DNA of 64,000 bases from Myxococcota bacterium (GTDB lineage Bacteria; Myxococcota_A; UBA9160; SMWR01), in NCBI GenBank assembly GCA_036560145.1, contig DATBRV010000011.1:15930-79929 (forward strand), read 5' to 3'. The notes under the pieces were generated by a model. It was given only the letters and a program-made list of their open reading frames with translations, did not search any database and was not told the origin of the DNA. Each line of letters begins with the position of its first letter. Positions within the stretch are counted from its first letter, which is position 1. Below are positions 1 to 13,314 of this stretch, one piece after another. A program made the position numbers and the translations under genes.

Positions 1-1
1 C

Positions 2-835
2 GAGCTGCGATATTGGCTCGCCGCCTGGGACGTCGCGCCGGAGCGCGACGTCCGCCTGCTCGTGGTCCCGCCGCCGCGCATGGTGGCGGAGCTCGAAGCC
101 GGCCGGATCGATGCCTTCTGCGTCGGCGAGCCGTGGAACAGCGTGGCTGCGCAGCACGGCAGTGGCACGATTCTCCTCACAGGCCACGAGATTTGGAGTC
201 ACGCCCCCGAGAAGGTGCTCGCGGTCTCCTACGACTGGGCAAGGCGGCATCGGGGCACGCACCGCGCGCTCCTGCGCGCGATCCTCGAGGCCGCGCGCTG
301 GTGCGACGACCCGGAGAACCAGCGCGATCTCGCGCACCGGCTTTCCGCCGGCGGCTACGTCGACGTGCCGGAGGACGCGCTGACGCCGGCTCTCGTCGGC
401 CCCCTGCGCACGGCAAGAGCCACATCCCAACCAGTGATGCCGGCGTTCTACGACTTCCACCGATTCGCGGCCGGCTTTCCCTGGCGCTCGCACGCCGCGT
501 GGATCATCACGCAGATGCTGCGCTGGGGTCAGATCGAAAAGCCGGTGGACGTACGGGCCGTGGCCGCCGCCGTGTATCGGAGTGATCTGCATCGCGAGGC
601 GGCCGAGGATCTGGGGCTTGCCTGCCCGACGCGAGACGAGAAGTCGGAAGGCGCGCACGCGGCGCCCTGGACGCTCGAGACGACGGGGGCGCCGATCGAC
701 ATGCCGCCGGACCGGTTTCTCGATGGCCGCGTCTTCGATCCGTTCGACGTCCCCGGCTACCTCACGGGCTTCTCGCAACACGAGTTGCGCGTTCCGCTCG
801 ACGAGCTGGCAGCCGCCCAAGGCCATCGCGGCTGA
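2..835 (+). CDS. nasS: NrtA-fold nitrate-binding protein, C-terminal 277 aa (5' end cut by window edge); probably the cytoplasmic nitrate/nitrite sensor NasS
   Basis: Frame 2 is open from base 2. The translation [35 protein letters not shown] parallels motifs of the downstream NrtA paralog ([25 protein letters not shown]). The gene lies directly upstream of an ANTAR-type leader, the usual nasT-nasS position. Confidence 0.6.
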   Translation, partial: ELRYWLAAWDVAPERDVRLLVVPPPRMVAELEAGRIDAFCVGEPWNSVAAQHGSGTILLTGHEIWSHAPEKVLAVSYDWARRHRGTHRALLRAILEAARWCDDPENQRDLAHRLSAGGYVDVPEDALTPALVGPLRTARATSQPVMPAFYDFHRFAAGFPWRSHAAWIITQMLRWGQIEKPVDVRAVAAAVYRSDLHREAAEDLGLACPTRDEKSEGAHAAPWTLETTGAPIDMPPDRFLDGRVFDPFDVPGYLTGFSQHELRVPLDELAAAQGHRG

Positions 836-1001
836 TCCCGAATCGGGCAGCGCGTGCGCACGCCGTGGGCACCTGCGCGTGCATCGGCACGCATCCGTTC
901 CCCGAGACCGTCGGAGAGCGCGCGCATGGTTGGCACGCTCCGTGAATGGGACGTTCGGCGGGCCTTCCCAACGACGCGGCGGCCCACCACGGGATTGAAG
1001 C

Positions 1002-1040
1002 GCGGATCAGTGGAGATCCGCTTGCGGACAAAGGCGTCCG
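1002..1040 (+). promoter_or_regulatory. Dual hexaloop hairpins in the nrtA leader RNA, matching the ANTAR (NasT-type) antiterminator target
   Basis: P1 is GCGGATC-AGTGGA-GATCCGC (1002-1021). P2 is CGGAC-AAAGGC-GTCCG (1025-1040). Both loops are 6 nt with A at position 1 and G at position 4, and the linker is 3 nt. The P2 3' arm is shared with the terminator stem. Confidence 0.6.
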
Positions 1041-1087
1041 ACCGAGCGCGGGAGTCGCGCTCGGCCGGGCGTCTTCGTTTTTGGGGG
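1036..1087 (+). terminator. Intrinsic terminator (attenuator) in the nrtA leader
   Basis: The stem pairs 1036-1050 with 1056-1070 (core CCGAGCGCG/CGCGCTCGG, one A.C mismatch, one G.U). The loop is GGAGT, followed by GTCTTCGTTTTTGGGGG. It ends 9 nt before the nrtA ATG. Confidence 0.6.
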
Positions 1088-1095
1088 TTCGAGGG

Positions 1096-2436
1096 ATGGG
1101 TGCAAGGCGGTCGCTCGCGCGACTCGGCTCGGCGTTGCTCGTCGCGGCTCTCCTGGGATCGGCGGCGCCTGCCGCGGCCGTGCCTCCCGAAAAGGACGAG
1201 CTCAAGCTCGGATTCATCAAGCTCACCGACTGCGCCCCCCTCGTCATCGCGAAAGAGCTCGGGTTCTTCGAAGAGGAGGATCTCTACGTCACACTCGAGG
1301 CGCAGGCCAATTGGAAGATCCTTCTCGACCGTGTGATCTCGGGCGAGCTCGACGGGGCCCACATGCTCGCCGGCCAGCCGATCGGAGCGACGATCGGAGT
1401 CGGGACGAAGGCCCCCGTCGTCACCGCGTTCAGCATGGACCTGAACGGGAACGCGATCACCGTATCGAACGCGATCTGGAAGCGGATGCAGGCGGCGGAC
1501 CCGAAGCTGGCCGGGCCAAGACCGTCGCATCCGGTCTCCGCCAGGGCGCTCGTGCCCATCGTGGAGGAGTTCAAGGCAAAGGGCGAGCCCATGCGCATGG
1601 GCGTGGTCTTTCCGCTCTCCACCCACAACTACGAACTCCGTTACTGGCTCGCGGCCGCCGGCATCAAGCCGGGTTTCTATACGAACGGCGACTCGACCGG
1701 GACGCGGGATGCCGACGTCCTGATCTCGGTCACGCCGCCCCCGCAAATGCCCAGCACGCTCGAGCAAGGGACCATCCAGGGCTATTGCGTCGGCGAGCCC
1801 TGGAACCAGCAGGCTGTCTTCAAGGGGATCGGTGTTCCGATCATCACCGACCTCGAGATCTGGAAGAACAATCCGGAAAAAGTCTTCGGCGTGACGGCGG
1901 GGTGGGCGCAGCAGCATCCCGAGACCCACGTTCGCGTCGTCAAAGCGCTGATCCGCGCCGGCCAGTGGCTGGACGCGAGCCCCGCGAATCGCAAGAAGGC
2001 GGTCGAGATCCTGGCGCGACCCGAATACGTCGGAGCAGACGCCGCGGTGATCGCGAACAGCATGACGGGATACTTCGAGTACGAAAAGGGCGATCGGCGC
2101 GAGATGCCCGACTTCAATGTCTTCTTCCGCTACTTCGCCACCTATCCGTACTACAGCGACGGCGTCTGGTACCTCACCCAGATGCGGCGCTGGGGTCAGA
2201 TCCCCGAGCCGAAGCCCGACGCCTGGTTCGACGCGACGATCCGCTCCGTCTACCTCCCCGCCGTCTGGCGCCAGGCCGCGGAACGCCTCGTCGCCGAGCA
2301 ACATCTGGCGCCCGCGGATCTGCCTGCGACCGACGGCTACAAACCGCCGGACTCCGGCTTCATCGACGGCGTCCCCTACGACGGACGCAAGCCCAACGCG
2401 TACCTGCGCTCGCTCGCGATCGGCCTGAAGGACTGA
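1096..2436 (+). CDS. nrtA: Nitrate ABC transporter substrate-binding protein (NrtA/CmpA family)
   Basis: ATG at 1096 gives a signal peptide [28 protein letters not shown]. The mature part starts [24 protein letters not shown] and carries [12 protein letters not shown] and GYCVGEPWN, typical NrtA motifs. Confidence 0.9.
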
Positions 2437-2449
2437 CCAGGAGGCTGCG

Positions 2450-3373
2450 ATGCTCGACGTTCGACAGCTGCTCCGCACGATTGGCGCTCCCGTGATGGCG
2501 CTCGCGCTCTTCGTCGCGCTGTGGTCCGCGGCGGCGGCGCGCATCGAGACGAGCATCGGCGCTCTGCCCGGGCCCGGGCAGGTCTTGCTCGCGGCGCGTG
2601 GGCTCGTGGCCGAGCATCGGGCGGAGCGCGCGCGAGAGGGCGAATTCACGACCCGGATGGAGGTGAAGAGGCGCGCCGCGCTCGCCGCGGGCGAGCCATG
2701 GCGGGATCGCCAATATGCCGGCAAACCCACCTATTTCGACCAGATCGCGACGAGCCTCGCGACCGTGTTCACCGGATTCCTGATCGCCTCGCTCGTCGCG
2801 GTTCCGCTCGGCGTGCTGTGTGGCACCAGTCCGACCGTCTACGCGGCGCTCAATCCGCTGATCCAGCTCTTCCGCCCGGTCTCACCGCTCGCCTGGCTCC
2901 CGATCGTCATGATCCTCGTGAGCGCGCTCTACACGAGCACGGATCCCCTCTTCGAGAAGTCGTTCCTGTCCTCGGCGATCACCGTCGCGCTCTGCTCGCT
3001 CTGGCCGACGCTCGTGAACACCGCTCTCGGTGTCGCCTCCGTCGATCCGGACCACCTGAACGTGGCGCGCGTGCTGCGTCTGCCGTGGTACGTGCGTGTG
3101 CGCAAGATCGTGATTCCGTCCTCGTTGCCCTGGATCTTCACGGGATTGCGCCTCTCGCTCGGTGTCGGCTGGATGGTGTTGATCGCGGCGGAGATGCTCG
3201 CGCAGAACCCGGGCCTCGGGAAGTTCGTGTGGGACATGTTCCAGAACGGCAGCAGCGAGACTCTCGCCCAGATCATGGTCGCCGTTTTCACGATCGGGGG
3301 GATCGGGTACGCGCTCGACCGGGGCATGATTGCGCTGCAACGGGCGGTGAGCCATGACGTCCGTGCGACCTGA
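2450..3373 (+). CDS. nrtB: Nitrate ABC transporter permease (NrtB, NitT/TauT family)
   Basis: Multi-TM protein with a long N-terminal loop and a BPD-type permease core (..[23 protein letters not shown].. [17 protein letters not shown]). Confidence 0.9.
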
Positions 3374-4193
3374 GGAGATCCGCAGCGGCGCGCGGCCCGC
3401 GGCGCTCGCCCTGCGCGGCGTCGCGAAGGGCTTCGGCCCGCGCGGGCGTCGCAGCGAGGTGCTGGCCGGCGTCGAGTTCGAGCTTGCGCCGGGCGAGTGT
3501 GTCGCGGTGCTCGGCTTCTCGGGGAGCGGGAAGACGACGCTGCTCTCGATCCTGGCGGGCCTTCTCCCGCCGGACGCGGGCTCCGTCGAGATGGACGGCG
3601 CGCCGGCTCCGCCCGCGGGCCCCGAACGCGGTGTCGTCTTTCAGAGCTACGCGCTGCTTCCCTGGCTCACGGTCGCGGGCAACGTGCAGCTCGCGGTCGA
3701 CGCCGTCCACCCGGAGCTCGGCCGGCGCGCCCGGCGCGCGCGCACGCTCGAGCTCGTGCGCGTCGTCGGTCTCGAGGCGGCGCTCGAGAAGCGTCCACGC
3801 GAGCTCTCCGGAGGCATGCGACAACGGGTGGCGGTCGCACGCGCGCTCGCGCTGGAGCCGCGAATCCTGCTGCTCGACGAGCCGCTCGGCGCGGTCGACG
3901 CGCTGACGCGCAGCTCGCTTCAGGCCGAGTTCGCGCGTCTCTTCGAGCGCTCGCACAAGAGCGTCGTCCTCGTCACCAACGACGTCGACGAAGCCATTCT
4001 GCTCGCGGACCGCATCGTGCCGCTGACGCCCGGGCCTCGTGCGACGCTCGGCGCCTCGTTTCGCGTCGCGCTCGCGCGCCCGCGCGATCGCACCTGGTTG
4101 AATCGCGACCCCGCCTTCAAGAAGCTGCGAAACGAGATCACGACCCATCTGCTCGAGCTCTCCGCGCGGCGTCCAGGCAGGGCGCGCCGATGA
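3354..4193 (+). CDS. ABC transporter ATP-binding protein (nitrate/sulfonate/bicarbonate type), first of two
   Basis: Walker [10 protein letters not shown], signature [15 protein letters not shown], Walker B LLLDEP. Overlaps the nrtB end by 20 nt. Confidence 0.9.
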
Positions 4194-5023
4194 GCGCCTA
4201 CCTCGAGCTGTTCGCGCTCGCCAAGGACTTCGATGGTCCCCAGGGGCGCACGCGCGTCGTGGAAGGCTTCGACATCGCACTCGCGCGCGGGGAGTTCGTG
4301 TGCCTGCTCGGCCACTCGGGCTGCGGGAAGTCGACCGTGCTCTCGATGGTCGCGGGCCTCACGGGGATCTCGTCCGGCGGCGTCGTGCTCGACGGCCGCG
4401 AGATCGACGGACCCGGGCCCGATCGCGGCGTGGTCTTCCAGTCGCCGAGCCTGCTGCCGTGGCTGACGGCGCTCGCCAACGTCCGGCTCGGCGTGGACCG
4501 CGTGTTTGCGGACCGCAGCGAGGCCGAGCGGCGCGCGATCGCTGCGGAAACGCTCGAGCGGGTGGGCCTCGGCGACGCGCTCGACCGGCGACCCGACGAG
4601 CTGTCGCAGGGCGAATGTCAGCGCGTGGGAATCGCGCGGGCCTTTGCGCTCGCGCCGAAGCTGCTGCTGCTCGACGAGCCGTTCGGGATGCTCGACTCGC
4701 TGACGCGCATGGAGCTTCAGGAGGTGCTGCTCGAGCTCTGGAGCCACGATCGCAAGACGGCGCTGATGGTCACCCACGACGTGGACGAAGCCCTCTACCT
4801 ATCGGATCGGATCGCGCTGATGACCAAGGGACCGAAGGCCCGGATCGGCGAGATCGTGGAAGTCGGTTTCCCGCGACCGCGCGAGCGCAGCGCCGTGCTC
4901 GAGCACCCGGACTACTACCAGCTCCGTGAACGCCTGCTGGATTTCCTCGAAGAGCAGGACGCGCGGCCCGAAGCCGAGCTGGTGAGCGACGCCGTCACCG
5001 GGCTCGGGGGAGTCGCCGCATGA
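4190..5023 (+). CDS. ABC transporter ATP-binding protein (NrtD-like), second of two
   Basis: An internal ATG at 4190 overlaps the previous stop (ATGA). Walker A GHSGCGKST, signature LSQGECQRVGIARAF, Walker B LLLDEP. Confidence 0.9.
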   Translation: MSAYLELFALAKDFDGPQGRTRVVEGFDIALARGEFVCLLGHSGCGKSTVLSMVAGLTGISSGGVVLDGREIDGPGPDRGVVFQSPSLLPWLTALANVRLGVDRVFADRSEAERRAIAAETLERVGLGDALDRRPDELSQGECQRVGIARAFALAPKLLLLDEPFGMLDSLTRMELQEVLLELWSHDRKTALMVTHDVDEALYLSDRIALMTKGPKARIGEIVEVGFPRPRERSAVLEHPDYYQLRERLLDFLEEQDARPEAELVSDAVTGLGGVAA

Positions 5024-7113
5024 GCGAAGCGTTGCGCGAGACCCGGAGCGTCTGCAGCTTCTGCGGCGTCGGATGCGGCGTGATCGTGACTTCGCAGGGT
5101 GACCGGATGGTCGGCGTGCGCGGCGACCCCGACCACCCGGCGAACCGCGGGGCGCTGTGCACGAAGGGCCTCGCGCTGCACGAGATGGTGTCCGGGGACG
5201 ATCGCCTCCGGGCGCCGCTCGGCCGCCGTGTCAAAGGCGGTCCGCTCGAGCGCCTCTCGTGGGAAGCGGCGGAGGATCGGCTCGCCGGCGCGCTGCGGGA
5301 GGCGCTGCGCGCGCGCGGCCCCGACGCCATCGGACTCTACCTCTCGGGCCAGCTTCTCACCGAGGACTATTACGCGCTCAACAAGCTCGCGAAGGGCTTC
5401 CTCGGCACGAACCACGTCGATTCGAATTCGCGGCTCTGCATGTCGAGCGCTGTGTCGGCGTATCAGCGCGCGTTCGGCGTCGACGGACCGCCGACCTGCT
5501 ACGAGGACCTCGACCACGCGGATCTCTACCTCGTGGTGGGTGCCAACATGGCGTGGTGCCACCCCGTGCTGTTTCGCCGGCTCGAGACGGCGCGCGCGTC
5601 GCGACGGCCAGCGCCGCGCCTGATCGTGCTCGATCCGCGTCGCACCGCCACGGCCGGCGTGGCTGATCTCCACGTCGCGCTGCGTCCCGGGAGCGACGGC
5701 GTCTTCCTCACGGCGGTGCTCGCCGAGCTCTGGCGGCGGGGCCGTCTGGACGACGCGTATGTCGACGCGCACACGGAGAATTTCGAAGCGCTCGAAGCCG
5801 TGCTCCCGGACTTCGGGCCGGAGCGTGTCGAGCGAGATTGCGGGATCTCGCAAGCGACGCTCGCATCCGTCGTCGACTGGTGGGCCGATGCGGGCGCAGC
5901 CCTCTCGCTCTGGGCGATGGGCGTGAACCAGAGCGCGCACGGAACGGACACGGCGAACGCGCTCATCAACCTGCACCTCGCCAGCGGCCAGATCGGTCGA
6001 CCCGGATCCGGCCCGTTCTCGCTCACCGGTCAGCCGAACGCGATGGGCGGGCGCGAGGTCGGGGCGATGGCGACCATGCTCTCCGCGCACCGCGACCTCG
6101 CTTCGGAGCGCGATCGCCTCGACCTCGCGTCGTTCTGGGGGAGCGGACCGATCGGCGCCACGCCAGGTCGGACCGCCGTCGAGCTGTTCGATCACGCGGC
6201 CGACGGCGGCCTGGACGTGCTCTGGATCGTCGCCACCAATCCGGCCGTGACGCTCCCCGACCAGGCGAGCGTTCGCCGCGCGCTCGAGCGCACACCGCTG
6301 GTGGTGCTCCAGGACGTGGTCGGCGGCACCGACACCGCGCGCTACGCCGATCTCCTGCTTCCGGCTGCCGGCTGGGGCGAGAAGTCGGGGACGATGACGA
6401 ACAGTGAACGCTGCGTCTCGCGGCTGAACGCGGCGGTGCCGCCGCCCGGCGAGGCGCGTCCGGATTGGATGATCGCGGCGGCGATCGCGGCGCGCATGGG
6501 CTTTGGGCACGCCTTCGCGTGGCGCAGCGAGACCGATATCTGGCGCGAACACACCGCGACCACCGCCGGGCGCGACTGCGACATGCTTGGCATGACCGCG
6601 GAGCGCCTGGCTTCCTCGCCGCTGCGCTGGCCGTGTCCCGACGCGTCGCACCCGGGGACGCTGCGGCTCTACGGGGACGGGCGCTTCCAGACCCCGAGCG
6701 GACGCGCCCGTTTCGTGGTCCCGCGCCGCCTGCGCGTGGCGGAGGCGCCTTCGGCCGGCACGCCGATCGCGCTGACGACCGGACGCGTTCGCGACCAGTG
6801 GCACACCATGACGAAGACCGGCCGCGTTGCGCGCCTGCTCGGCCACTCTCCCGTGCCGGAGATCGAACTGTCGCCCGCGGACGCGGCCCGGCTCGGCATC
6901 GGAGACGGGGACCTCGTGCGGGTCACGGCGTCTCGCGGCGGCTTCACGATGCCGGCGCGCATCACGGACGCCTTGCCGGAGGGTGTCGCGTTCGCGCCGA
7001 TGCACTGGAGCGATGCCACCGCCGAGGATGCTCTCGTGAACGGCGCGCTCGCCCCACAGATCGACCCGCACTCGAAGCAGCCCGAGCTCAAGCACGTTCC
7101 GGTGCGCGTCGAA
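5020..7113 (+). other. nasA: NasA module: molybdopterin (bis-MGD) assimilatory nitrate reductase
   Basis: N-terminal 4Fe-4S motif CSFCGVGCG..C, followed by LCTKG, YLSGQLLTEDYYALNKLAKGFLGTNHVDSNSRLCMSS and a C-terminal beta-barrel segment (GDLVRVTASRGGF..APMHW). Confidence 0.9.
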
Positions 7114-10100
7114 CGCCTCGCCGGGAAGGCTGCGCCGGCCGGCGACACGGCCGGCGCGCGCACCCTGTGCGTCTGTCGCGAAGTGACGTTCGACTCGGTG
7201 CAGACCGCCCTCGCGCAGGGCGCGGCGGGCGTCGGATCCGTCGGTCGCCGGACGGGCGCCGGAATGGGTTGCGGCTCGTGCGTCCCGGAGATCGCGGGGC
7301 TGCTCCGCCGCGCACCGGCCGCGCCCGGGCGCGAGCGGCTCGTCGTGATCGGAAACGGAATGGTCGGCCACCGCTTCGTCGAGTCTCTGGTCGAGCACGG
7401 CGGGGCGGAGCGCTACCAGGTCGTCGTGCTCGGCGAAGAGCCGCGCCCGGCCTACGACCGGGTGCACCTCTCGGATCTCTTCTCGGGCCGGACGCCAGCG
7501 GATCTCGCGCTCGCCTGCGCGGAGGAATATCTGGCGGACGGCGTCGAGCTTCGGGTCGGCGCGCGCGTCATGGCGATCGATCGCGACGACCGGAGCGTCC
7601 TCACCAGCGACGGCGAGCGCATCCCGTACGACGCGCTCGTACTGGCAACCGGCTCCTCGCCCTTCGTGCCGCCCATTCCGGGAACCGAGAAGCGCGGCGT
7701 CTTCGTCTACCGCACGATCGAGGACGTCGAAGCGATCCGCGCTGCCGCTGCCGGGGCGCGCACCGGCATCGTGATCGGCGGGGGGCTGCTCGGGCTCGAG
7801 GCGGCGAAGGCGTTGCGCGACCTCGGCCTCGAGACGCACGTGGTCGAGGCGGCGGCCCGGCTGATGCCCCGCCAGCTCGACGCCGCGGGCTCGGCCGCGC
7901 TCGTGCGGCGCATCGAGGCGCTGGGCGTTCGCGTCCATCTCGCCACGGCGATCGAGCAGGTGCTCGGCGACGACAGGGCGACCGGCCTGCTCCTCGCGGG
8001 CCGCAAGCAGCTCGCGGCCGAGCTGATCGCGATCTCGGCCGGCATCCGACCCCGCGACGAGCTGGCGGTCGCTTGCGGCCTCGCGCGCGCCGAGCGCGGC
8101 GGCGTCGCGGTGGACGACGAGCTGCGCACCAGTGACCCGCGCATCTTCGCGATCGGGGAGGTCGCTTCGCACCGCGGCATGGTCTACGGGCTGGCCGCTC
8201 CTGGCTACGCGATGGCCGACACGCTTGCGTGGAATTTCGCCTCGGAGCCAGCCGCCGAGGCGCGGCGCTTCGAAGGCGCCGACCTCTCCACGCAGCTCAA
8301 GCTCCTGGGCGTCGACGTGGCGAGCCTCGGCGACCCGTTCGCGGGTGGCGAGAGCGCGACGGCGGTCGTGTTCCAGGACCTGCGGCGCGATCGCTACGCG
8401 AAGCTCGTGATCTCGGACGACGGCCGCCGGCTCGCCGGCGGCATCCTGGTCGGCGACGTGAGCCAGTACGCGCGCCTGCTCCAGCTCGCGCGCGAGGGCC
8501 GGGAGCTTCCCGAGAGCACGGACGAGCTCCTCTTCGGAACCCGCGCGAGCGAAGCGGTGGACGCGAGCGACGCAGCTCAGGTCTGTTCCTGCAACAACGT
8601 GAGCCGCGGCTCCCTGCGCGGCGCGATCCGCGAGAACGCGCTCGACACGATTGCGGCGGTCAAGAAGGCGACCAAGGCGGGCACGGGCTGCGGGGGATGC
8701 CTGCCGATCGTGACGCAGATCCTGAACGCGGAGCTCGCGGCGGCCGGGCGGGCCGGAGAAAACCACCTTTGCGAGCACTTCGCCTACACGCGGCAGGAGC
8801 TCTTCCAGATCGTGAAGATCACGGGTAGCCGAAGCTTCGAGGCACTGCTCGCGAGCCACGGGCGCGGCGCGGGCTGCGAGATCTGCAAGCCGGCAGTGGC
8901 GTCGATTCTCGCGAGCTTGTGGAACGAGCCGATTCTCGGCCAGGATACGATCCAGGACAGCAACGACCGCTTCCTCGGGAACATCCAGCGCGGCGGCACC
9001 TACTCCGTCGTCCCTCGCGTCCCGGGTGGCGAGATCACCCCCGAAAAGCTCGTCGTGCTCGGGCAGGTGGCCAGCAGGTTCAGCCTCTACTGCAAGATCA
9101 CCGGCGGCCAGCGCATCGACCTGCTCGGCGCGCGCGTCGAGCAGCTCCCCGACATCTGGAAGGAGCTGGTCGAGGCGGGCTTCGAGAGCGGCCACGCCTA
9201 CGGCAAGGCCATGCGAACCGTCAAGAGTTGCGTCGGCACGACCTGGTGTCGCTACGGCGTTCAGGACTCGACCGGTCTCGCGATCCGCATCGAGGAGCGA
9301 TACCGGGGCATCCGCGCGCCGCACAAGCTCAAGGCTGCCGTCTCCGGCTGCATCCGCGAGTGTGCGGAGGCGCAAAGCAAGGACTTCGGCGTGATCGCGA
9401 CCGAGCGCGGCTGGAACCTCTACGTGTGCGGGAACGGCGGGTCGAAGCCCCGCCATGCGGAGCTTCTCGCCGCGGATCTCGACGAGCCGACGCTGGTTCG
9501 CTTCATCGACCGCTTCCTCATGTACTACATCCAGACGGCGGATCGATTGACGCGCACCGCGCGTTGGCTCGAGACGCTGCCAGGCGGAGTCGACTACCTG
9601 CGCAAGGTCGTGGTCGACGATCACCTCGGTGTGGCCGCGGAGCTGGAGAGCCAGGTGCAGCATCTCGTCGACACCTACGCGTGCGAGTGGAAGCAGGTCG
9701 TCGAGAGCCCGGAGCTCCAGAAGCGCTTCCGTCATTTTGCGAACGCGAGCGAGCCCGACGACACGCTGAGCTTCGTCGAGGAGCGAGGCCAGCGGCGCCC
9801 GGCCGACTGGGCGAAGCCGGTTGCGTGTGCCCCGCCCGACCCCGAAGCGCTTGCAGAAGACTCCAGCTGGGTGCCGCTCGCCTCGGTGGACGAGGTGCCG
9901 GCCGACGGCGGCGTCGCCGTGCGCTACGGCGACGTCCAGCTCGCCGTCTTCCACGTGGCCGCGCACGACGCCTGGTACGCCACCCAGAACCGCTGCCCCC
10001 ACACGGGGGACATGGTGCTGGGCCGCGGCATCGTGGGAGATCAGGGCGGCCGAGCCAAGGTCGCCTGTCCGCAGCACAAGAAGACGTTCGATCTGGAGAC

Positions 10101-11625
10101 CGGCTCGGGGCTCTCCGATCCGGAGTACTGCATCGCGACGTTCCCGGTGAACGTCGAGGAGGGAAAGGTGTACGTCAAGCTGCCGCCCGCGACGGTGCTG
10201 GCCCGGCTGCTCACCAGCGCCGCCTGCCTGCTCCTGCTGCTGCTCGCTCCCGGCGCCGGTCGCGCCGAGGATGGGGACGGCTTCTTCGCGTCGCCCTCGC
10301 TCTACTGGCAGTCGGGCGACCATCGGATCGACCTCGGCGCGAGCGTCCGCGCCCGCGGCGAGGGCTGGGACGCCTTCGCCGACGACACCGATTGGTACTC
10401 GGGGATCCGCACGCGCGTCCGCATGCAGTACGCCTTCAAGGAGAGGTTCATCGTCGCAGGCGAGTTCCAGGACGTGCGCCTCAACAGCATGAACGCGAAC
10501 GGCACGGGCGCGCTCGCGAATTATCGCAACGCGAACAAGGGCGGGGACAGCGCCCACGGCGACGACCTGCGCTCGCTCTACGTCGAAGGCCGGCTCCCGG
10601 ATTGGGGCTTCCTGCGCGTCGGGCGCCAGGATGTGAAGCTCGGACAGGAGGTGCTCTACCCGGAGCCCAACTGGCGCTATCTCAAGATGGCGCGCCTGGG
10701 CGAGCGGCTGGTCGGGACCGTCGGCTGGAGCCACGTCGAGCGCGCCTACGACGGCTTCGCGGGCGCCATCGAGCGCGGCGGCGTGCAGCTCTACGGCTTC
10801 GGCGCGCGGCCCACGACCGGCGTCTTCGAGGCCGAGGATGCGTACTCGGACTTCAGCGACATCACCGTCGGCGGCGCGACGCTCACCGTGAAGCGCGGCA
10901 CGCTGCTCGAGGCGAGCGAGATCGGCGTCTTCGGGCTCGGCTACCACGACGACCGGTCGATCTCGGGCGGCGGTCTTCCGGGCGACGTCGAGATCGGAAC
11001 CTTCGGCGCGCACTGGCTCGGCGTCTACCCGCTCGGCCCCGGCAACGCGGACGTACTCCTATGGGGCGCCGGTCAGTTCGGCGAATACAACGGGCTCGAC
11101 CATGCGGCGGGCGCCGGAATCGTCGAGGTCGGCTACCAGCTCCCGAATCTCTTCGCGAAGCCGTGGTTGCGCCTCGGCGTAAACGTCGCCTCCGGCGACG
11201 GCGACTCCGGCGACGGAGACCACACGACGTTCTTCAACATGCTCCCCACCAACCATCTCTACTACGGCTTCGCCGATCAGCTCTCGTTCCAGAATCTGAC
11301 GAACCCATTCGTGCAGCTCCGGCTGGCGCCGCACCCGATGCTCGCGATCAACTTCTTCGTACACTGGTTCGAGCTCACGAACTCGAACGACATGCGCTAT
11401 GCCGGGACCGGCGCGTATGACAAGTCCAGCTTCGGGTTCCCGGCGTTCCCGTCGGGCGGGCGCCACCACGTCGGCGTCGAGTACGACGTGGTCGCGACCT
11501 TCACACCGCACCGGACCACGACGATCGAGGTCGGCTTCTCGCACCTCGACGGGGGCGCCATGTTCAGCGCAGCCCCGTCGCGCGACGTCCAGTTCATCTA
11601 CACGTCGCTCGAGCTTCGCTACTGA
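5020..11625 (+). CDS. Stop-free 2,201-codon ORF: assimilatory nitrate reductase (NasA), BFD [2Fe-2S] domain, NAD(P)H nitrite reductase large subunit (NirB), Rieske small subunit (NirD), then a signal peptide and alginate-export-type beta-barrel porin
   Basis: A single frame runs from ATG 5020 (overlapping the previous stop) to TGA 11625 with no in-frame stop. Module-by-module motifs are given in the sub-features below. Confidence 0.85.
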   Translation: MSEALRETRSVCSFCGVGCGVIVTSQGDRMVGVRGDPDHPANRGALCTKGLALHEMVSGDDRLRAPLGRRVKGGPLERLSWEAAEDRLAGALREALRARGPDAIGLYLSGQLLTEDYYALNKLAKGFLGTNHVDSNSRLCMSSAVSAYQRAFGVDGPPTCYEDLDHADLYLVVGANMAWCHPVLFRRLETARASRRPAPRLIVLDPRRTATAGVADLHVALRPGSDGVFLTAVLAELWRRGRLDDAYVDAHTENFEALEAVLPDFGPERVERDCGISQATLASVVDWWADAGAALSLWAMGVNQSAHGTDTANALINLHLASGQIGRPGSGPFSLTGQPNAMGGREVGAMATMLSAHRDLASERDRLDLASFWGSGPIGATPGRTAVELFDHAADGGLDVLWIVATNPAVTLPDQASVRRALERTPLVVLQDVVGGTDTARYADLLLPAAGWGEKSGTMTNSERCVSRLNAAVPPPGEARPDWMIAAAIAARMGFGHAFAWRSETDIWREHTATTAGRDCDMLGMTAERLASSPLRWPCPDASHPGTLRLYGDGRFQTPSGRARFVVPRRLRVAEAPSAGTPIALTTGRVRDQWHTMTKTGRVARLLGHSPVPEIELSPADAARLGIGDGDLVRVTASRGGFTMPARITDALPEGVAFAPMHWSDATAEDALVNGALAPQIDPHSKQPELKHVPVRVERLAGKAAPAGDTAGARTLCVCREVTFDSVQTALAQGAAGVGSVGRRTGAGMGCGSCVPEIAGLLRRAPAAPGRERLVVIGNGMVGHRFVESLVEHGGAERYQVVVLGEEPRPAYDRVHLSDLFSGRTPADLALACAEEYLADGVELRVGARVMAIDRDDRSVLTSDGERIPYDALVLATGSSPFVPPIPGTEKRGVFVYRTIEDVEAIRAAAAGARTGIVIGGGLLGLEAAKALRDLGLETHVVEAAARLMPRQLDAAGSAALVRRIEALGVRVHLATAIEQVLGDDRATGLLLAGRKQLAAELIAISAGIRPRDELAVACGLARAERGGVAVDDELRTSDPRIFAIGEVASHRGMVYGLAAPGYAMADTLAWNFASEPAAEARRFEGADLSTQLKLLGVDVASLGDPFAGGESATAVVFQDLRRDRYAKLVISDDGRRLAGGILVGDVSQYARLLQLAREGRELPESTDELLFGTRASEAVDASDAAQVCSCNNVSRGSLRGAIRENALDTIAAVKKATKAGTGCGGCLPIVTQILNAELAAAGRAGENHLCEHFAYTRQELFQIVKITGSRSFEALLASHGRGAGCEICKPAVASILASLWNEPILGQDTIQDSNDRFLGNIQRGGTYSVVPRVPGGEITPEKLVVLGQVASRFSLYCKITGGQRIDLLGARVEQLPDIWKELVEAGFESGHAYGKAMRTVKSCVGTTWCRYGVQDSTGLAIRIEERYRGIRAPHKLKAAVSGCIRECAEAQSKDFGVIATERGWNLYVCGNGGSKPRHAELLAADLDEPTLVRFIDRFLMYYIQTADRLTRTARWLETLPGGVDYLRKVVVDDHLGVAAELESQVQHLVDTYACEWKQVVESPELQKRFRHFANASEPDDTLSFVEERGQRRPADWAKPVACAPPDPEALAEDSSWVPLASVDEVPADGGVAVRYGDVQLAVFHVAAHDAWYATQNRCPHTGDMVLGRGIVGDQGGRAKVACPQHKKTFDLETGSGLSDPEYCIATFPVNVEEGKVYVKLPPATVLARLLTSAACLLLLLLAPGAGRAEDGDGFFASPSLYWQSGDHRIDLGASVRARGEGWDAFADDTDWYSGIRTRVRMQYAFKERFIVAGEFQDVRLNSMNANGTGALANYRNANKGGDSAHGDDLRSLYVEGRLPDWGFLRVGRQDVKLGQEVLYPEPNWRYLKMARLGERLVGTVGWSHVERAYDGFAGAIERGGVQLYGFGARPTTGVFEAEDAYSDFSDITVGGATLTVKRGTLLEASEIGVFGLGYHDDRSISGGGLPGDVEIGTFGAHWLGVYPLGPGNADVLLWGAGQFGEYNGLDHAAGAGIVEVGYQLPNLFAKPWLRLGVNVASGDGDSGDGDHTTFFNMLPTNHLYYGFADQLSFQNLTNPFVQLRLAPHPMLAINFFVHWFELTNSNDMRYAGTGAYDKSSFGFPAFPSGGRHHVGVEYDVVATFTPHRTTTIEVGFSHLDGGAMFSAAPSRDVQFIYTSLELRY
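7162..7306 (+). other. BFD-like [2Fe-2S] domain linking the NasA and NirB modules
   Basis: TLCVCREVTFDSV...GAGMGCGSCVPEI shows the CxC...CxxC pattern. Confidence 0.8.
7336..9810 (+). other. nirB: NirB module: FAD/NAD(P)H, 2Fe-2S and siroheme-4Fe-4S nitrite reductase large subunit
   Basis: RLVVIGNGMVGHRF, EEPRPAYDRVHLS, YRTIEDVEAI, ICSCNNVSRG, KAGTGCGGCLP, CVGTTWCRYG and SGCIRECAEAQ are near-colinear with E. coli NirB as I remember it. No start codon precedes the Rossmann fold. Confidence 0.9.
9865..10182 (+). other. nirD: NirD module: Rieske-type nitrite reductase small subunit
   Basis: SWVPLASVDEVPADGGVAVRYGDVQLAVFH..NRCPHTGDMVLGRGIVGD..VACPQHKKTFDLETG..VEEGKVYVKL. It joins NirB through a Pro/Ala linker with no stop or start codon. 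Confidence 0.85.
10195..11625 (+). CDS. Alginate-export-family outer-membrane porin, a possible independent translation unit from an internal GTG (alternative GTG at 10168 behind GAGGAGGGA)
   Basis: GTG 10195 would give M-LARLLTSAACLLLLLLAPGAGRA/EDG, a canonical signal peptide. The body has alternating beta-strand character and the C-terminal residue is aromatic (..SLELRY), as in OMP beta-signals. Confidence 0.6.
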   Translation: MLARLLTSAACLLLLLLAPGAGRAEDGDGFFASPSLYWQSGDHRIDLGASVRARGEGWDAFADDTDWYSGIRTRVRMQYAFKERFIVAGEFQDVRLNSMNANGTGALANYRNANKGGDSAHGDDLRSLYVEGRLPDWGFLRVGRQDVKLGQEVLYPEPNWRYLKMARLGERLVGTVGWSHVERAYDGFAGAIERGGVQLYGFGARPTTGVFEAEDAYSDFSDITVGGATLTVKRGTLLEASEIGVFGLGYHDDRSISGGGLPGDVEIGTFGAHWLGVYPLGPGNADVLLWGAGQFGEYNGLDHAAGAGIVEVGYQLPNLFAKPWLRLGVNVASGDGDSGDGDHTTFFNMLPTNHLYYGFADQLSFQNLTNPFVQLRLAPHPMLAINFFVHWFELTNSNDMRYAGTGAYDKSSFGFPAFPSGGRHHVGVEYDVVATFTPHRTTTIEVGFSHLDGGAMFSAAPSRDVQFIYTSLELRY

Positions 11626-11664: not shown

Positions 11665-12288
11665 TCACGGCAGATAGGTTCCCAGGTAGCCCTTCACGAG
11701 GCGCTGGGTCTCCTCGACCAGCGCCTCGAAGTCGGGGCGCTCGTCGACCAGCGCGCGGTCCTGGAGCGCGTTGCCGGCCGTCACCACGGTGCGGCAGATC
11801 TCGAGCGCCTTGGCGCGCGAGATCCCGGCGCGGCCGAAGGCCGGATGCAGCGACATCAGGTCCGCGACGCGCTCGTTCGAGGCCGCCGTGACCTCCGCGA
11901 ACTCGGCCGTGAAGCGGATCGTGCGGAGCAGGGTCCGGTAGTCGGGCGACGCGCCGAAGAAGCCGACGGTCGCGCTCACGGTGCGGTCCACCGCCTCGCG
12001 CCAGGCAAGCCCCCGGCATTCGGCGAGCTGGCGCGCGGTCTCGCTGTCGGCTTCGTCCATCACGGTCTCGGCCACCGCGAGCAGCAGCGCGTTCTTGCTC
12101 GAGAAATACTGATAGACGGAGCCCACAGGAACGCCGGCGCGCTCCGCGATTCCCTCGATCGTGATCTCGGCGACCGGCTGCGCCTCCAGCTCGCGGCGGG
12201 CCGCGTCGAGGATCCGCTCGACCCGCTCGCGCGCGCGCGCCTGCTTGGGGATCCGCCGCCGCGGGCCCTCGGTGTCCGGTGCGCTCAC
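11665..12288 (-). CDS. TetR/AcrR family transcriptional regulator
   Basis: N-terminal HTH segment ERILDAARRELEAQPVAEITIEGIAERAGVPVGSVYQYFSSKNALL. GTG start at 12288. Confidence 0.9.
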   Translation of the reverse strand: MSAPDTEGPRRRIPKQARARERVERILDAARRELEAQPVAEITIEGIAERAGVPVGSVYQYFSSKNALLLAVAETVMDEADSETARQLAECRGLAWREAVDRTVSATVGFFGASPDYRTLLRTIRFTAEFAEVTAASNERVADLMSLHPAFGRAGISRAKALEICRTVVTAGNALQDRALVDERPDFEALVEETQRLVKGYLGTYLP

Positions 12289-13012: not shown

Positions 13013-13314
13013 ACGTGACTGGCGTTCATCTTTCCGGTGGGCGGGTACGGAGAGCGCGGCCGTCCGGGCTTTCGGCGCCGCACGGTGTCGCGAACACAAC
13101 CGTTCGAGATCGTTGAAGGAATCCGGCTGGCGCCGCCAGCTCTCGCTCCCCGCAGGGATCGAGAGCCGGCGCCCGGTCCTACGGGTTTCTAACTTTTTTT
13201 GTTGAACTCGGATCACGTTTCGTGCTCCACTCGGCCGACGTCGGCTTGGTGTCACACGCCGTGCGGCGTGCGGGTCCACCGGGCCGGATTGAGGGCCGAG
13301 GGGGAGGGCGCACG

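What the first reader, a model, noticed from the sequence alone, without database searches (positions are those of the whole stretch)
5020..10182. Nitrate reductase, nitrite reductase large subunit and Rieske small subunit encoded as one polypeptide
- The NasA module ends in a BFD-like CxC..CxxC domain.
- It then runs, about 10 codons later, into the NirB Rossmann motif VVIGNGMVGHRF with no stop and no plausible start codon between them.
- NirB continues through a short Pro/Ala linker into a NirD Rieske domain.
- NasA with a C-terminal 2Fe-2S domain, and NirB-NirD fusions, are each known separately.
- A single ~1,720-aa chain would carry every cofactor site for the eight-electron reduction of nitrate to ammonium. 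Those sites are bis-MGD, 4Fe-4S, two BFD-type 2Fe-2S, FAD/NAD(P)H, siroheme-4Fe-4S and Rieske.
- I do not recall such a chain being characterised. It would imply intramolecular electron sharing and channelling of toxic nitrite.
Basis: partly seen in the sequence, partly recalled or inferred. Interest (0 to 1): 0.7.

Follow-up and report, generated by a model that had tools for sequence, protein, structure and literature searches.

The report
Nitrate-to-ammonium enzyme fused to porin

Summary
The NasA–BFD–NirB–NirD fusion is real. There are no stops, every cofactor motif is intact, and about 23 related protein clusters from Myxococcota MAGs share the architecture.

The ORF does not end at 10182, where the codon is CTG. 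It runs 5020–11625 (2201 aa, 236 kDa). After the Rieske domain, the conserved tail "KLPPATVLAR" runs into a 20-residue hydrophobic segment ending in G-R-A, and then into an AlgE-like 18-strand β-barrel.

Unfused relatives carry the porin as a separate, overlapping gene with its own ATG, Shine-Dalgarno and signal peptide. In the fused forms the stop, start, SD and charged N-region are gone. The hydrophobic core and cleavage site remain.

The fused form occurs on at least 10 independent contigs in two subclades that are 75% identical. These form one clade (199/200 bootstraps). All modules are under purifying selection (dN/dS 0.05–0.41).

Best reading (inferred, about 0.55): this is a polyprotein split at an internal Sec signal peptide. 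It would yield a 186.5-kDa, possibly membrane-tethered NAD(P)H nitrate-to-ammonium reductase and a 49-kDa porin.

I found no paper describing either fusion. GenBank labels the relatives "NirB".

The parts
1..835 (+). 3' part of a nasS-like nitrate/nitrite sensor gene (NMT1_2). The gene starts before the window. The nasT-like Response_reg+ANTAR gene lies further upstream in the identical loci L006 and L007.
   Evidence: Pfam NMT1_2 1.4e-31; gene order in L006/L007
836..1095 (+). Leader before nrtA, with a long GC-rich hairpin followed by TTCGTTTTT (about 1031-1083). It looks like a terminator and is the expected kind of target for NasT antitermination.
   Evidence: RNA fold and sequence; analogy with the Paracoccus nas leader (PMC5424462). 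z-score only -1.7. Function inferred.
1096..2436 (+). nrtA-like periplasmic nitrate-binding protein. The mechanical ORF starts at 946. Relatives are called at 446 aa, which corresponds to ATG 1096.
   Evidence: Pfam NMT1_2 1.1e-94; gene calls in L006/L007
2450..3373 (+). nrtB-like ABC permease
   Evidence: Pfam BPD_transp_1; SD pairing -10.3 kcal/mol
3354..4193 (+). nrtC-like ABC ATPase
   Evidence: Pfam ABC_tran
4190..5023 (+). nrtD-like ABC ATPase. Its TGA overlaps the ATG of the fused gene (ATGA).
   Evidence: Pfam ABC_tran; sequence
5020..11625 (+). The whole four-module ORF: 2201 codons plus TGA, 235.9 kDa
5020..7119 (+). Module 1 (aa 1-700): Mo-bisMGD assimilatory nitrate reductase (NasA/NasC/NarB type). 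It has the N-terminal 4Fe-4S motif C12/C15/C19/C47 and the Mo-ligand motif NSRLCMSS.
   Evidence: Pfam; NCBIfam NasA/NasC models at 1e-146/1e-135 but below equivalog cut-offs; motifs
7168..7341 (+). BFD-like 2Fe-2S domain 1 (CxC..CxxC, aa 717-754) and a 20-residue linker (VPEIAGLLRRAPAAPGRERL) into the NirB Rossmann strand. No stop.
7342..9819 (+). Module 2 (aa 775-1600): NirB. Contains FAD and NAD(P)H GxGxxG motifs, a second BFD-like 2Fe-2S domain (1189-1227), and the siroheme/4Fe-4S cysteines Cx5C 1404-1410 and Cx3C 1444-1448.
   Evidence: NCBIfam NF011565 1094 bits above cut-off 883, TIGR02374 1005 bits; Pfam; motifs
9820..10182 (+). Pro/Ala linker and module 3 (aa 1616-1721): NirD/NasG-type Rieske domain with both ligand pairs (CPH...CPQH, aa 1659-1686)
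   Evidence: TIGR02378 112 bits above cut-off 74.65; Pfam Rieske_2; motif
10183..10266 (+). Junction (aa 1722-1749). PPATVLAR is the conserved NirD tail and serves here as the positively charged n-region. LLTSAACLLLLLLAPGAG is the hydrophobic core and the most hydrophobic 15-mer in the protein. G-R-A is followed by the predicted signal-peptidase I site between A1749 and E1750. AlphaFold models a single helix here.
   Evidence: Cleavage is inferred, not shown.
10267..11625 (+). Module 4 (aa 1750-2201, 49.4 kDa): AlgE-like 18-strand outer-membrane beta-barrel ending in ...LELRY, followed by the stop codon TGA
   Evidence: Pfam Alginate_exp 106 bits; AF2 barrel pLDDT mostly >90; best PDB fold match AlgE 3rbh, E 3.6e-15
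10168..10197 (+). Candidate internal start codons. GTG 10168 is Val1717 of the EEGKVYV motif and is preceded by GAGGAGGG. GTG 10195 is Val1726 and has no SD.
   Evidence: SD pairing -12.3 and +0.1 kcal/mol respectively. The first is conserved in unfused relatives too, so it may only reflect the protein motif.

Best explanation
The gene is the last cistron of a nitrate-assimilation operon (nasS/T-like regulators, nrtABCD, then this gene). It encodes a polyprotein.

The first 1721 residues are a covalent version of the Paracoccus-type NasC-NasB-NasG system:
- NAD(P)H reduces the single FAD of the NirB module.
- Electrons then pass through the 2Fe-2S centres (two BFD-type and one Rieske) to the siroheme-4Fe-4S site, which reduces nitrite to ammonium.
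- Electrons also pass to the 4Fe-4S/Mo-bisMGD site, which reduces nitrate to nitrite.

The chain then continues, with no stop codon, through a 28-residue segment and into an AlgE-like porin. That segment has the h- and c-regions of the porin's own Sec signal peptide. Its n-region has been replaced by the tail of NirD.

I propose the following sequence of events:
1. The hydrophobic segment emerges from the ribosome and inserts N-in/C-out into SecYEG.
2. The porin part is translocated.
3. Signal peptidase I cuts after G-R-A (A1749|E1750).
4. The 49-kDa barrel goes to BAM and the outer membrane, where it is probably a nitrate/nitrite-permeable anion channel.
5. The 186.5-kDa enzyme stays in the cytoplasm, at least initially tethered to the inner membrane by its C-terminal helix, next to the NrtABCD importer.

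Shown: the single ORF, its domains and motifs, its conservation, its origin from two overlapping genes, the loss of the porin's own start signals, and purifying selection on every part.

Inferred: the electron path, Sec targeting, cleavage, tethering and porin substrate.
For: 1. There is no stop between NirD and the porin in any frame.

2. Reproducibility:
- The protein is identical on two other assemblies.
- In-frame homologues exist at 89%, 87-94%, 81% and 75% identity (L004, L088, P0121, L001/HVH20708.1, P0242, L005, L089, L090).

3. The ancestral state is visible:
- In L002, L093, L008 and L095 the porin is a separate ORF in another frame. In L002 it overlaps the enzyme gene by 11 nt and has its own ATG and a normal signal peptide MRSRALWLCAALVGLAHA|S.
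- About 120 stand-alone porin clusters exist, against 5 fused ones.

4. The junction is the same in all fused forms:
- The NirD tail ...LPPxxxLAR is also present in unfused proteins.
- It is followed by exactly 20 residues of hydrophobic core plus an AxA-type site.
- The sequence of that core has diverged (LLTSAACLLLLLLAPGAGRA, LLAAIASLLILLSGPASPRA, MLAGIVGALLFAFAPGAARA), but its character and frame are kept.

5. Start signals:
- Real starts in this clade pair with the anti-SD at -5.8 to -12 kcal/mol.
- The junction start candidates in fused loci pair at +0.1 to -1.7, weaker than the in-ORF background mean of -3.2.

6. Purifying selection:
- dN/dS within subclade A: NasA 0.21, NirB 0.14, NirD 0.13, junction 0.23, porin 0.22.
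- dN/dS within subclade B: 0.19, 0.19, 0.05, 0.14, 0.41.
- dS is about 0.3-0.4 in both.

7. Fused forms are one clade among nas-linked loci: enzyme 191/200, porin 158/200, concatenated 199/200. The arrangement has therefore survived divergence to 75% identity.

8. Structure:
- AF2 gives a Rieske domain, one helix over the junction and a confident barrel.
- The best PDB match is AlgE.
- Only about 10-20 residues separate the helix from the first barrel strand. That is too short to span a periplasm, so a functional outer-membrane barrel requires cleavage (inference).

9. Electron sharing:
- No other reductase is in the operon.
- The sister 5-module variant carries an extra FAD reductase that the 3- and 4-module forms lack.
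- In Paracoccus, NasC receives NADH electrons via NasB and NasG (PMC5424462).

10. The Bradyrhizobium cytochrome b/c1 fusion is noted in PMC4013037. Its cleavage at an internal signal peptide is from my own knowledge of the Thony-Meyer/Hennecke work and was not re-read here.
Against: - No experimental or proteomic evidence for processing exists, and no dedicated signal-peptide predictor was available.
- A GTG inside the conserved EEGKVYV motif (10168) sits 5 nt after GAGGAGGG (-12.3 kcal/mol). It could start an ordinary pre-porin (MYVKLPPATVLAR + core), so the porin may not depend on the polyprotein.
- Every fused locus also has some ATG/GTG/TTG within five codons of the core, though without an SD.
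- In P0121 the -3 residue of the aligned site is Pro, so the exact site may differ between lineages.
- Stand-alone porins (P0122, P0124-P0127, P0125) nest inside the fused clade in a broader porin tree, where all-fused monophyly is 0/200. The fusion has therefore been undone, or arose more than once. That argues it is not strongly advantageous.
- The trees are simple NJ trees. Some enzyme-porin pairings used were inferred from equal contig lengths.
- The NasA module scores below NCBIfam's equivalog cut-offs, so its substrate is inferred from motifs and operon context.
Confidence: 0.55

Rival explanations
1. Two products by two initiations. The functional porin is translated mainly from an internal start, either GTG 10168 behind the SD-like GAGGAGGG or GTG 10195 (TTG or ATG in relatives). 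It would then be an ordinary pre-porin. The missing stop merely gives the enzyme a long C-terminal extension on a fraction of molecules, which is then exported and cleaved anyway or degraded. The fusion would be a tolerated accident of a 37-nt-type deletion in an overlapping gene pair.
For: - The SD-like site before GTG 10168 pairs at -12.3 kcal/mol and is conserved in all fused loci.
- Every fused locus keeps a start-type codon near the hydrophobic core. TTG, a rare Leu codon at 70% GC, appears in L004 and L088 exactly where the window lacks it.
- Unfused porins nest within the fused clade.
- L002 has GCGCTC repeats 37 nt apart, whose deletion would give exactly this in-frame junction (reading).
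Against: - Ribosomes that translate NirD cannot terminate, so the 2201-aa chain is made regardless and its fate still has to be explained.
- The GGAGG/GTG motif is equally conserved in unfused relatives, where it encodes E-E-G-K-V. It is therefore explained by the protein.
- The junction-proximal candidates have no SD.
- The fused state was kept through divergence to 75% identity, with purifying selection on the junction.
Confidence: 0.27
2. Uncleaved membrane protein. The hydrophobic segment is a permanent transmembrane anchor and the C-terminal domain stays attached. The result would be a cytoplasmic enzyme with a periplasmic or inner-membrane-proximal beta domain, and no outer-membrane function.
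For: - The core plus c-region is exactly 20 residues in all fused lineages and slightly more hydrophobic than in unfused signal peptides. This is compatible with a stable membrane helix.
- P0121 has Pro at -3 of the aligned site.
Against: - Small residues at -1/-3 are kept in the other five lineages.
- The C-terminal module keeps all barrel features, the terminal aromatic residue and purifying selection typical of a working porin.
- A barrel cannot reach the outer membrane on a 10-20-residue tether (inference).
Confidence: 0.08
3. Decaying gene. Loss of the stop codon inactivated the porin, or both parts, and the locus is on its way to becoming a pseudogene.
For: The fusion is a minority, derived state.
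Against: - dN/dS is 0.05-0.41 in every module at dS about 0.3-0.4 in two subclades.
- There are no internal stops or frameshifts in 10 or more contigs.
- All cofactor motifs are intact.
Confidence: 0.04
4. Assembly or consensus error. A stop codon or frameshift at a junction was lost in assembly, as in the first reader's refutation scenario.
For: None found. One relative (L018, a long-read MAG) does show many frameshifts, and P0031 looks like a frameshifted call. Such errors therefore do occur in this kind of data.
Against: - The same protein was recovered from three independent assemblies with 1-2 nt differences.
- Diverged in-frame versions come from JGI, NCBI and ENA.
- About 23 clusters share the NasA-NirB-NirD junctions.
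Confidence: 0.02

Closest known systems
Paracoccus denitrificans NasC-NasB-NasG assimilatory nitrate/nitrite reductase system (also K. oxytoca NasA/NasB, Rhodobacter Nas)
   Same: - Same three catalytic and redox parts: a Mo-bisMGD nitrate reductase without its own NAD(P)H site, an FAD/siroheme NirB-type nitrite reductase, and a NirD-type Rieske protein.
- NasC is reported to receive NADH electrons via NasB and NasG (PMC5424462).
- Same regulators (NasS/NasT-like) and a leader with a terminator-like hairpin.
   Different: - Here the three are one polypeptide, in the order NasC-BFD-NasB-NasG, with a BFD-type 2Fe-2S domain at the seam.
- Transport is by NrtABCD rather than the NasA/NasH MFS transporters.
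- The chain also continues into a porin.
- Activity and electron path are not tested here.
NirB-NirD fusions (Klebsiella NasB, fungal NiiA, many Myxococcota and Planctomycetes)
   Same: The NirB-linker-NirD part is this known fusion (PMC4013037). Polyangiaceae and Kofleriaceae MAGs and Blastopirellula have it, with NasA as a separate gene.
   Different: An N-terminal NasA+BFD module and a C-terminal porin are added.
Other nitrate-nitrite reductase fusions in databases: Nitrospiria NasA-NirB (MFI5303448.1, 1568 aa), NirB-NasA (P0037, 1590 aa), Symbiodinium microadriaticum 'nasD' model (2365 aa, NirB-NirD-NasA-BFD plus other domains), and Solirubrobacterales NasA-FAD reductase (about 1220 aa)
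   Same: Nitrate and nitrite reductase modules, or a nitrate reductase plus an NAD(P)H reductase, in one chain.
   Different: - Domain orders and contents differ: no BFD at the seam and no Rieske in Nitrospiria, and the reverse order in the others.
- Identity is 38-49%, so these are independent fusions.
- None has a porin, and I found none characterised.
AlgE (Pseudomonas aeruginosa alginate export porin; PDB 3rbh, 4afk) / Pfam Alginate_exp
   Same: - Pfam family member.
- Best structural match, an 18-strand barrel.
- Many invariant Arg residues in the family alignment, as expected for an anion-conducting pore.
   Different: - Only 13-15% identity, and no sequence-level PDB hit.
- No alginate genes nearby. 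It is embedded in a nitrate operon, or next to cytochrome c genes in some relatives.
- The substrate is presumably a small anion such as nitrate/nitrite. This is inferred only.
Bradyrhizobium japonicum FbcH cytochrome b/c1 polyprotein (internal signal peptide cleaved to give two proteins)
   Same: One bacterial ORF, an internal signal-peptide-like segment and two mature proteins in different locations. The fusion is noted in PMC4013037. Its processing is from my own knowledge.
   Different: - FbcH joins two subunits of one membrane complex.
- Here a soluble multi-cofactor cytoplasmic enzyme would be joined to an outer-membrane barrel with an unrelated fold and destination.
- Processing is unproven here.

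Membership tests
NAD(P)H nitrite reductase NirB | Scores above the curated NCBIfam cut-off for the large subunit | tested here: met
   NF011565 1094 bits (cut-off 883); TIGR02374 1005 bits (cut-off 578)
NAD(P)H nitrite reductase NirB | FAD and NAD(P)H GxGxxG motifs, BFD-type CxC..CxxC, siroheme/4Fe-4S cysteines Cx5C and Cx3C | tested here: met
   aa 775-783, 918-927, 1189-1227, 1404-1410, 1444-1448
NirD/NasG Rieske small subunit | Scores above the TIGR02378 cut-off and has the Rieske ligands CxH...CxxH | tested here: met
   112 bits (cut-off 74.65); CPH...CPQH at aa 1659-1686
Assimilatory nitrate reductase NasA/NasC/NarB (Mo-bisMGD) | Molybdop_Fe4S4 + Molybdopterin + Molydop_binding domains, the 4Fe-4S cysteines and the Mo-ligand Cys | tested here: met
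   Pfam; C12/C15/C19/C47 and NSRLCMSS
Assimilatory nitrate reductase NasA/NasC/NarB (Mo-bisMGD) | Scores above an NCBIfam equivalog cut-off for a nitrate reductase | tested here: not met
   NasA_Halo 489 bits against 1000; NasC 452 against 1100; Fdh-alpha 503 against 666. The substrate is assigned from the operon context (nrtABCD, NirBD) and motifs, not from a curated model.
Assimilatory nitrate reductase NasA/NasC/NarB (Mo-bisMGD) | Nitrate reductase activity | not testable with these tools
   Requires an enzyme assay
Paracoccus-type composite NasBGC system | The nitrate reductase has no NAD(P)H/FAD module of its own, and no separate reductase is encoded | tested here: met
   Domain map; operon content; contrast with the 5-module relatives, which carry an extra Pyr_redox_2 module
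Paracoccus-type composite NasBGC system | Electrons from NADH reach the Mo site via the NirB FAD and the Rieske centre | not testable with these tools
   Inferred from PMC5424462 and the domain content
Alginate_exp / AlgE outer-membrane barrels | Pfam PF13372 score above the gathering threshold | tested here: met
   106.4 bits against 25.2, covering profile positions 3-390 of 395
Alginate_exp / AlgE outer-membrane barrels | 18-strand beta-barrel fold closest to AlgE | tested here: met
   AF2 mean pLDDT 86, barrel mostly >90; 3rbh_A E 3.6e-15, TM 0.64 on the target
Alginate_exp / AlgE outer-membrane barrels | Part of an alginate biosynthesis/export gene cluster | tested here: not met
   Neighbours are nitrate-assimilation genes and a TetR gene. 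It is a family member by fold but not an alginate exporter.
Sec (type I) signal peptide | Positively charged n-region, hydrophobic h-region, and small residues at -3/-1 | tested here: met
   R1729; LLTSAACLLLLLLAP, the top hydropathy peak of the protein; G-R-A. The same pattern is found in five of six fused lineages. This was manual evaluation only, with no predictor.
Sec (type I) signal peptide | Located at the N-terminus of the translated product | tested here: not met
   It lies at aa 1722-1749 of the ORF. It would be N-terminal only if an internal start is used.
Bacterial polyprotein split at an internal signal peptide (FbcH type) | A single ORF without a stop, with an internal signal-peptide-like segment between two otherwise independent proteins | tested here: met
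Bacterial polyprotein split at an internal signal peptide (FbcH type) | Proteolytic processing into two mature proteins | not testable with these tools
   Needs expression, fractionation and N-terminal sequencing

The most novel reading that the evidence does not exclude
A single bacterial ORF is a three-compartment polyprotein. An internal Sec signal peptide, created when the tail of NirD replaced the n-region of a porin's signal peptide, exports and releases an outer-membrane nitrate/nitrite channel. At the same time it converts the complete NAD(P)H nitrate-to-ammonium reductase into a C-terminally anchored inner-membrane protein beside its ABC importer. Uptake channel and eight-electron reductase would then be made in fixed 1:1 stoichiometry and the enzyme placed at the membrane.
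Probability: 0.4. Interest if true: 0.85.

Novelty: new variant of a known kind. Interest (0 to 1): 0.68.

Why it matters
Enzymology:
- A natural single chain carrying Mo-bisMGD, two 4Fe-4S, three 2Fe-2S, FAD and siroheme would be a compact test-bed for how one NAD(P)H site feeds two catalytic sites.
- It could also show whether nitrite is passed on without release. This question is open for the multi-subunit Nas systems.

Cell biology:
- A conserved fusion of a cytoplasmic enzyme to an outer-membrane barrel through a retained signal peptide is very unusual in bacteria.
- If the chain is processed, internal signal peptides can act as natural polyprotein breakpoints outside the cytochrome bc1 case, and a signal peptide can be recycled as a membrane anchor.
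- If it is not processed, it is a well-dated example of a tolerated stop-loss between overlapping genes.

Annotation:
- GenBank and IMG label these 1700-2200-aa proteins simply "nitrite reductase large subunit NirB". That hides both the nitrate reductase and the porin from gene-based nitrogen-cycle surveys.

Tried and rejected
- Literature: six full-text searches found no paper on a NasA-NirB-NirD chain, on a nitrate-operon Alginate_exp porin, or on this polyprotein. "Fused nitrate reductase" hits were M. tuberculosis narX or unrelated. PMC6688271 was read, and its "fusion protein" refers to XoxG:J and MerT:P.
- A PDB sequence search with the porin profile gave no hit. Only the fold search worked.
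- Rfam, tRNA and promoter/terminator scans found nothing in the window or at the gene's 3' end.
- A first tree on 657 columns of NirB-NirD was unresolved, with fused monophyly at 86/200. A broad porin tree gave 0/200, because stand-alone porins nest inside. Only the full-length, nas-linked, concatenated set was decisive, at 199/200. I therefore dropped an interim idea of two clearly independent fusions, but kept later un-fusing or recurrence as open.
- Frameshift-based termination of NirD was rejected, because no frame has a stop near the junction.
- The genome-contig scan mostly returned ordinary nirBD loci of Burkholderiales and Cytophagales. These were useful only as the all-separate baseline.
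- L018 (a long-read MAG) was discarded because of multiple frameshifts.
- DNA for P0122 and P0124 could not be fetched.

Full report
**Observation**

The + strand carries one ORF from ATG 5020 to TGA 11623-11625, encoding 2201 aa and 235.9 kDa. The finding's end at 10182 is not a stop. Bases 10180-10182 are CTG, and no frame has a stop nearby. The start overlaps the stop of the upstream ABC ATPase gene (ATGA) and has a Shine-Dalgarno pairing of -8.6 kcal/mol.

Pfam maps the domains in this order:
- Molybdop_Fe4S4, Molybdopterin and Molydop_binding (NasA-type)
- Fer2_BFD
- Pyr_redox_2, Rubredoxin_C, a second Fer2_BFD, NIR_SIR_ferr and NIR_SIR (NirB)
- Rieske_2 (NirD)

NirB and NirD score above NCBIfam's curated cut-offs. 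The NasA part matches assimilatory nitrate reductase models strongly but below their equivalog cut-offs. All cofactor-ligand motifs are intact.

**Is it real?**

The identical 2201-aa protein is encoded on two other contigs, assembled from two other samples, with 1 and 2 nucleotide differences over 6606 nt.

A search of 5.8 billion proteins gave:
- Four clusters with all four modules, 2201-2218 aa. These are the window itself, one at 89% and two at 75% identity. One is GenBank HVH20708.1, [quoted passage not shown].
- About 23 clusters of 1715-1786 aa with NasA-BFD-NirB-NirD and no porin.
- Two clusters of about 2190 aa with an extra FAD/NAD reductase module.

Further in-frame four-module loci came from the metagenome scan (L088, L089, L090) and from the porin search (P0121). 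Consensus error is excluded.

**Context**

In the window and all relatives the gene order is the same:
1. A Response_reg+ANTAR gene (NasT-like)
2. An NMT1_2 gene (NasS-like)
3. nrtA, nrtB, nrtC and nrtD
4. The fused gene

This is a nitrate-assimilation operon with no separate reductase or ferredoxin gene. The leader before nrtA contains a long hairpin followed by a T-run. This resembles the terminator hairpins of the NasT-controlled Paracoccus nas leader (PMC5424462).

Other Myxococcota (Polyangiaceae and Kofleriaceae MAGs) have NirB-NirD fused but NasA separate, at 36-39% identity. Burkholderiales have all three separate.

**The NirD-porin junction**

Unfused relatives show the ancestral state. 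In L002 the enzyme gene ends ...VFVWLPPEKVLARALETTGAGDAE*. The porin gene starts 11 nt before that stop, in another frame. It has GGAG upstream and a normal signal peptide, MRSRALWLCAALVGLAHA|SRGEE. L093, L008 and L095 are similar. About 120 porin clusters of this clade are stand-alone proteins of 465-500 aa.

In the fused forms the conserved NirD tail ...KLPPxxxLAR runs directly into the hydrophobic core:
- Window: LAR-LLTSAACLLLLLLAPGAGRA|EDGDGF
- P0121: LAR-LLAAIASLLILLSGPASPRA|EEQDGF
- Subclade B: LAR-MLAGIVGALLFAFAPGAARA|QEAPAPPPDGF

What has been lost is the stop, the porin's ATG, its SD and its charged n-region. What has been kept is exactly 20 residues from LAR to the AxA-type site. 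This stretch includes the most hydrophobic 15-mer of the whole protein.

L002 has GCGCTC in the NirD tail and again in the porin signal peptide, 37 nt downstream (my reading). A deletion between such repeats would produce exactly this in-frame junction. This is a plausible origin and is inferred only.

**Translation signals**

Real starts in these loci pair with the 16S anti-SD at -5.8 to -12 kcal/mol. These include the unfused porins L002, L093, L092, L008 and L096, as well as nrtB, nrtC, nrtD and the fused gene itself.

The start-type codons at the junction of fused loci pair at only +0.1 to -1.7 kcal/mol. These codons are GTG 10195 in the window, TTG in L004 and L088, and ATG in subclade B. 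The pairing is weaker than the in-ORF background mean of -3.2.

There is one caveat. GTG 10168 (Val of EEGKVYV) follows GAGGAGGG and pairs at -12.3 kcal/mol. It is equally conserved in unfused relatives, where it simply encodes the NirD motif. It could nevertheless start an ordinary pre-porin. Whatever happens there, ribosomes translating NirD have no stop and must make the 2201-aa chain.

**Selection and history**

Within each fused subclade dS is about 0.3-0.4, and all parts are under purifying selection.

| Module | dN/dS, window vs L004 | dN/dS, L001 vs L005 |
|---|---|---|
| NasA | 0.21 | 0.19 |
| NirB | 0.14 | 0.19 |
| NirD | 0.13 | 0.05 |
| Junction | 0.23 | 0.14 |
| Porin | 0.22 | 0.41 |

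The trees give the following picture:
- With full-length enzymes and nas-linked porins, the four-module forms are one clade: enzyme 191/200, porin 158/200, concatenated 199/200.
- A shorter alignment was unresolved.
- A broad porin tree places some stand-alone porins inside that clade. P0122 has an upstream gene overlapping it by 11 nt. P0124 and P0125 lie next to cytochrome c and Tll0287-like genes, and P0124 shares downstream synteny with subclade B.

The simplest reading is one old fusion, retained to 75% identity, with later separation or relocation of the porin in some descendants. Recurrent fusion is not excluded.

**Structure**

AlphaFold2 on aa 1611-2201, with a 97-sequence alignment, gave mean pLDDT 86. 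The model has three parts:
- A beta-rich Rieske domain
- One helix over residues 116-132 of the query, which is the junction core
- A confident barrel, with most 10-residue blocks above 90

The best PDB matches are AlgE structures (3rbh, E 3.6e-15, TM 0.64-0.69 on the target), followed by OprD/Occ porins. Sequence search of the PDB found nothing. Only 10-20 residues separate the helix from the first strand.

**Mechanism**

Shown:
- The ORF, its domains and its motifs
- Loss of the porin's own start signals
- Conservation and purifying selection

Inferred, step 1 (the enzyme): the N-terminal 1721 residues work like Paracoccus NasC, NasB and NasG joined together. One NAD(P)H/FAD site would feed both the siroheme site and, through the 2Fe-2S centres, the Mo site. 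Three observations support this:
- No other reductase is present in the operon.
- The 5-module relatives have an extra reductase that this form lacks.
- PMC5424462 reports that NasC receives NADH electrons via NasB and NasG.

Inferred, step 2 (the porin): the junction segment acts as an internal Sec signal peptide.
- The porin is translocated and cut off after G-R-A by signal peptidase I.
- It is then assembled in the outer membrane as an anion channel.
- The 186.5-kDa enzyme remains cytoplasmic, at least transiently anchored by the leftover helix.

A functional barrel, which is implied by purifying selection, cannot sit in the outer membrane on so short a tether. Cleavage or separate initiation is therefore required. 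I give the polyprotein model about 0.55 and the internal-start model about 0.27. The two are not mutually exclusive.

**Comparison with what is known**

- NirB-NirD fusion is known, in Klebsiella NasB and fungi (PMC4013037).
- NasA with a C-terminal 2Fe-2S domain is known.
- NasA-FAD reductase chains of about 1220 aa are common in Solirubrobacterales.
- Nitrate-nitrite reductase fusions in other orders exist as database entries: Nitrospiria NasA-NirB, P0037 NirB-NasA, and a Symbiodinium "nasD" gene model.

I found no paper describing any of these nitrate-nitrite fusions or the porin fusion.

The closest functional analogue of the enzyme is the Paracoccus NasBGC system. The closest analogue of the proposed processing is the Bradyrhizobium cytochrome b/c1 polyprotein. 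Its fusion is cited in PMC4013037, and its processing is from my own knowledge.

**Verdict**

This is a new variant of known kinds. The enzyme fusion is a moderately interesting covalent version of a known system. The conserved read-through into an outer-membrane porin via a retained signal-peptide core is the surprising part, and it can be tested directly.

Noticed in passing
L008 1341-8891; L095 2-6130; proteins P0019, P0022, HVP28995.1: This is a five-module sister form. NasA is followed by an extra Pyr_redox_2/Rubredoxin_C NAD(P)H-FAD reductase and a BFD domain, then NirB-NirD, about 2190 aa in all, with the porin as a separate overlapping ORF. The 3- and 4-module forms look like this form minus the extra reductase, or the reverse.
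   Followed up: partly
C-termini of P0006-P0024 (e.g. ...SCGARCGG, ...ACGAGCDSCAGG, ...CGSGEGCSGCGG): Most three-module proteins end, after the conserved LPPxxxLAR tail, in short variable Cys/Gly-rich tails (CGxxC-like). They might bind metal or be assembly handles. The fused forms have replaced this tail with the signal-peptide core.
   Followed up: no
L096 766-3312; P0124 contig: Close stand-alone relatives of the porin sit directly after a trio of cytochrome c-type/Tll0287-like genes instead of nas genes. P0124 keeps the same downstream neighbours (VIT1, DUF2277, PP2C, oligopeptide ABC) as fused subclade B. This suggests the upstream nas block was swapped for a cytochrome block.
   Followed up: partly
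window 836-1095 (hairpin about 1031-1083, then TTCGTTTTT): There is a terminator-like hairpin in the leader between the nasS-like gene and nrtA. This is the expected place for NasT (ANTAR) antitermination. The fold z-score for the whole leader is only -1.7.
   Followed up: partly
window 4915-11013, minus strand: A 2032-codon stop-free antisense ORF mirrors the fused gene, and another + frame is open from 8919 to 11420. At 70% GC this is the usual shadow-ORF effect and not a gene.
   Followed up: no
P0032 (Symbiodinium microadriaticum 'nasD', 2365 aa): This eukaryotic gene model contains NirB-NirD-NasA-BFD followed by Glycos_transf_3 and methyltransferase domains, at 45% identity to the window protein. 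It is either a real dinoflagellate multi-enzyme chain or a merged or contaminant bacterial operon.
   Followed up: partly
P0031 (1422 aa); L018: P0031 joins an NrtD-like ABC ATPase to NasA-NirB and then degenerates into Arg-rich out-of-frame sequence. L018 (a long-read MAG) shows NirB and the porin broken over several frames. Both look like indel errors and show what artefactual fusions look like in these data.
   Followed up: partly
window 11665-12288 (-), 13222-14616 (+): Downstream of the operon are a divergently oriented TetR-family regulator and, further on, a weak pectinacetylesterase-like ORF. There is no obvious link to nitrate assimilation. No tRNA or Rfam family was found anywhere in the 64-kb window.
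   Followed up: no
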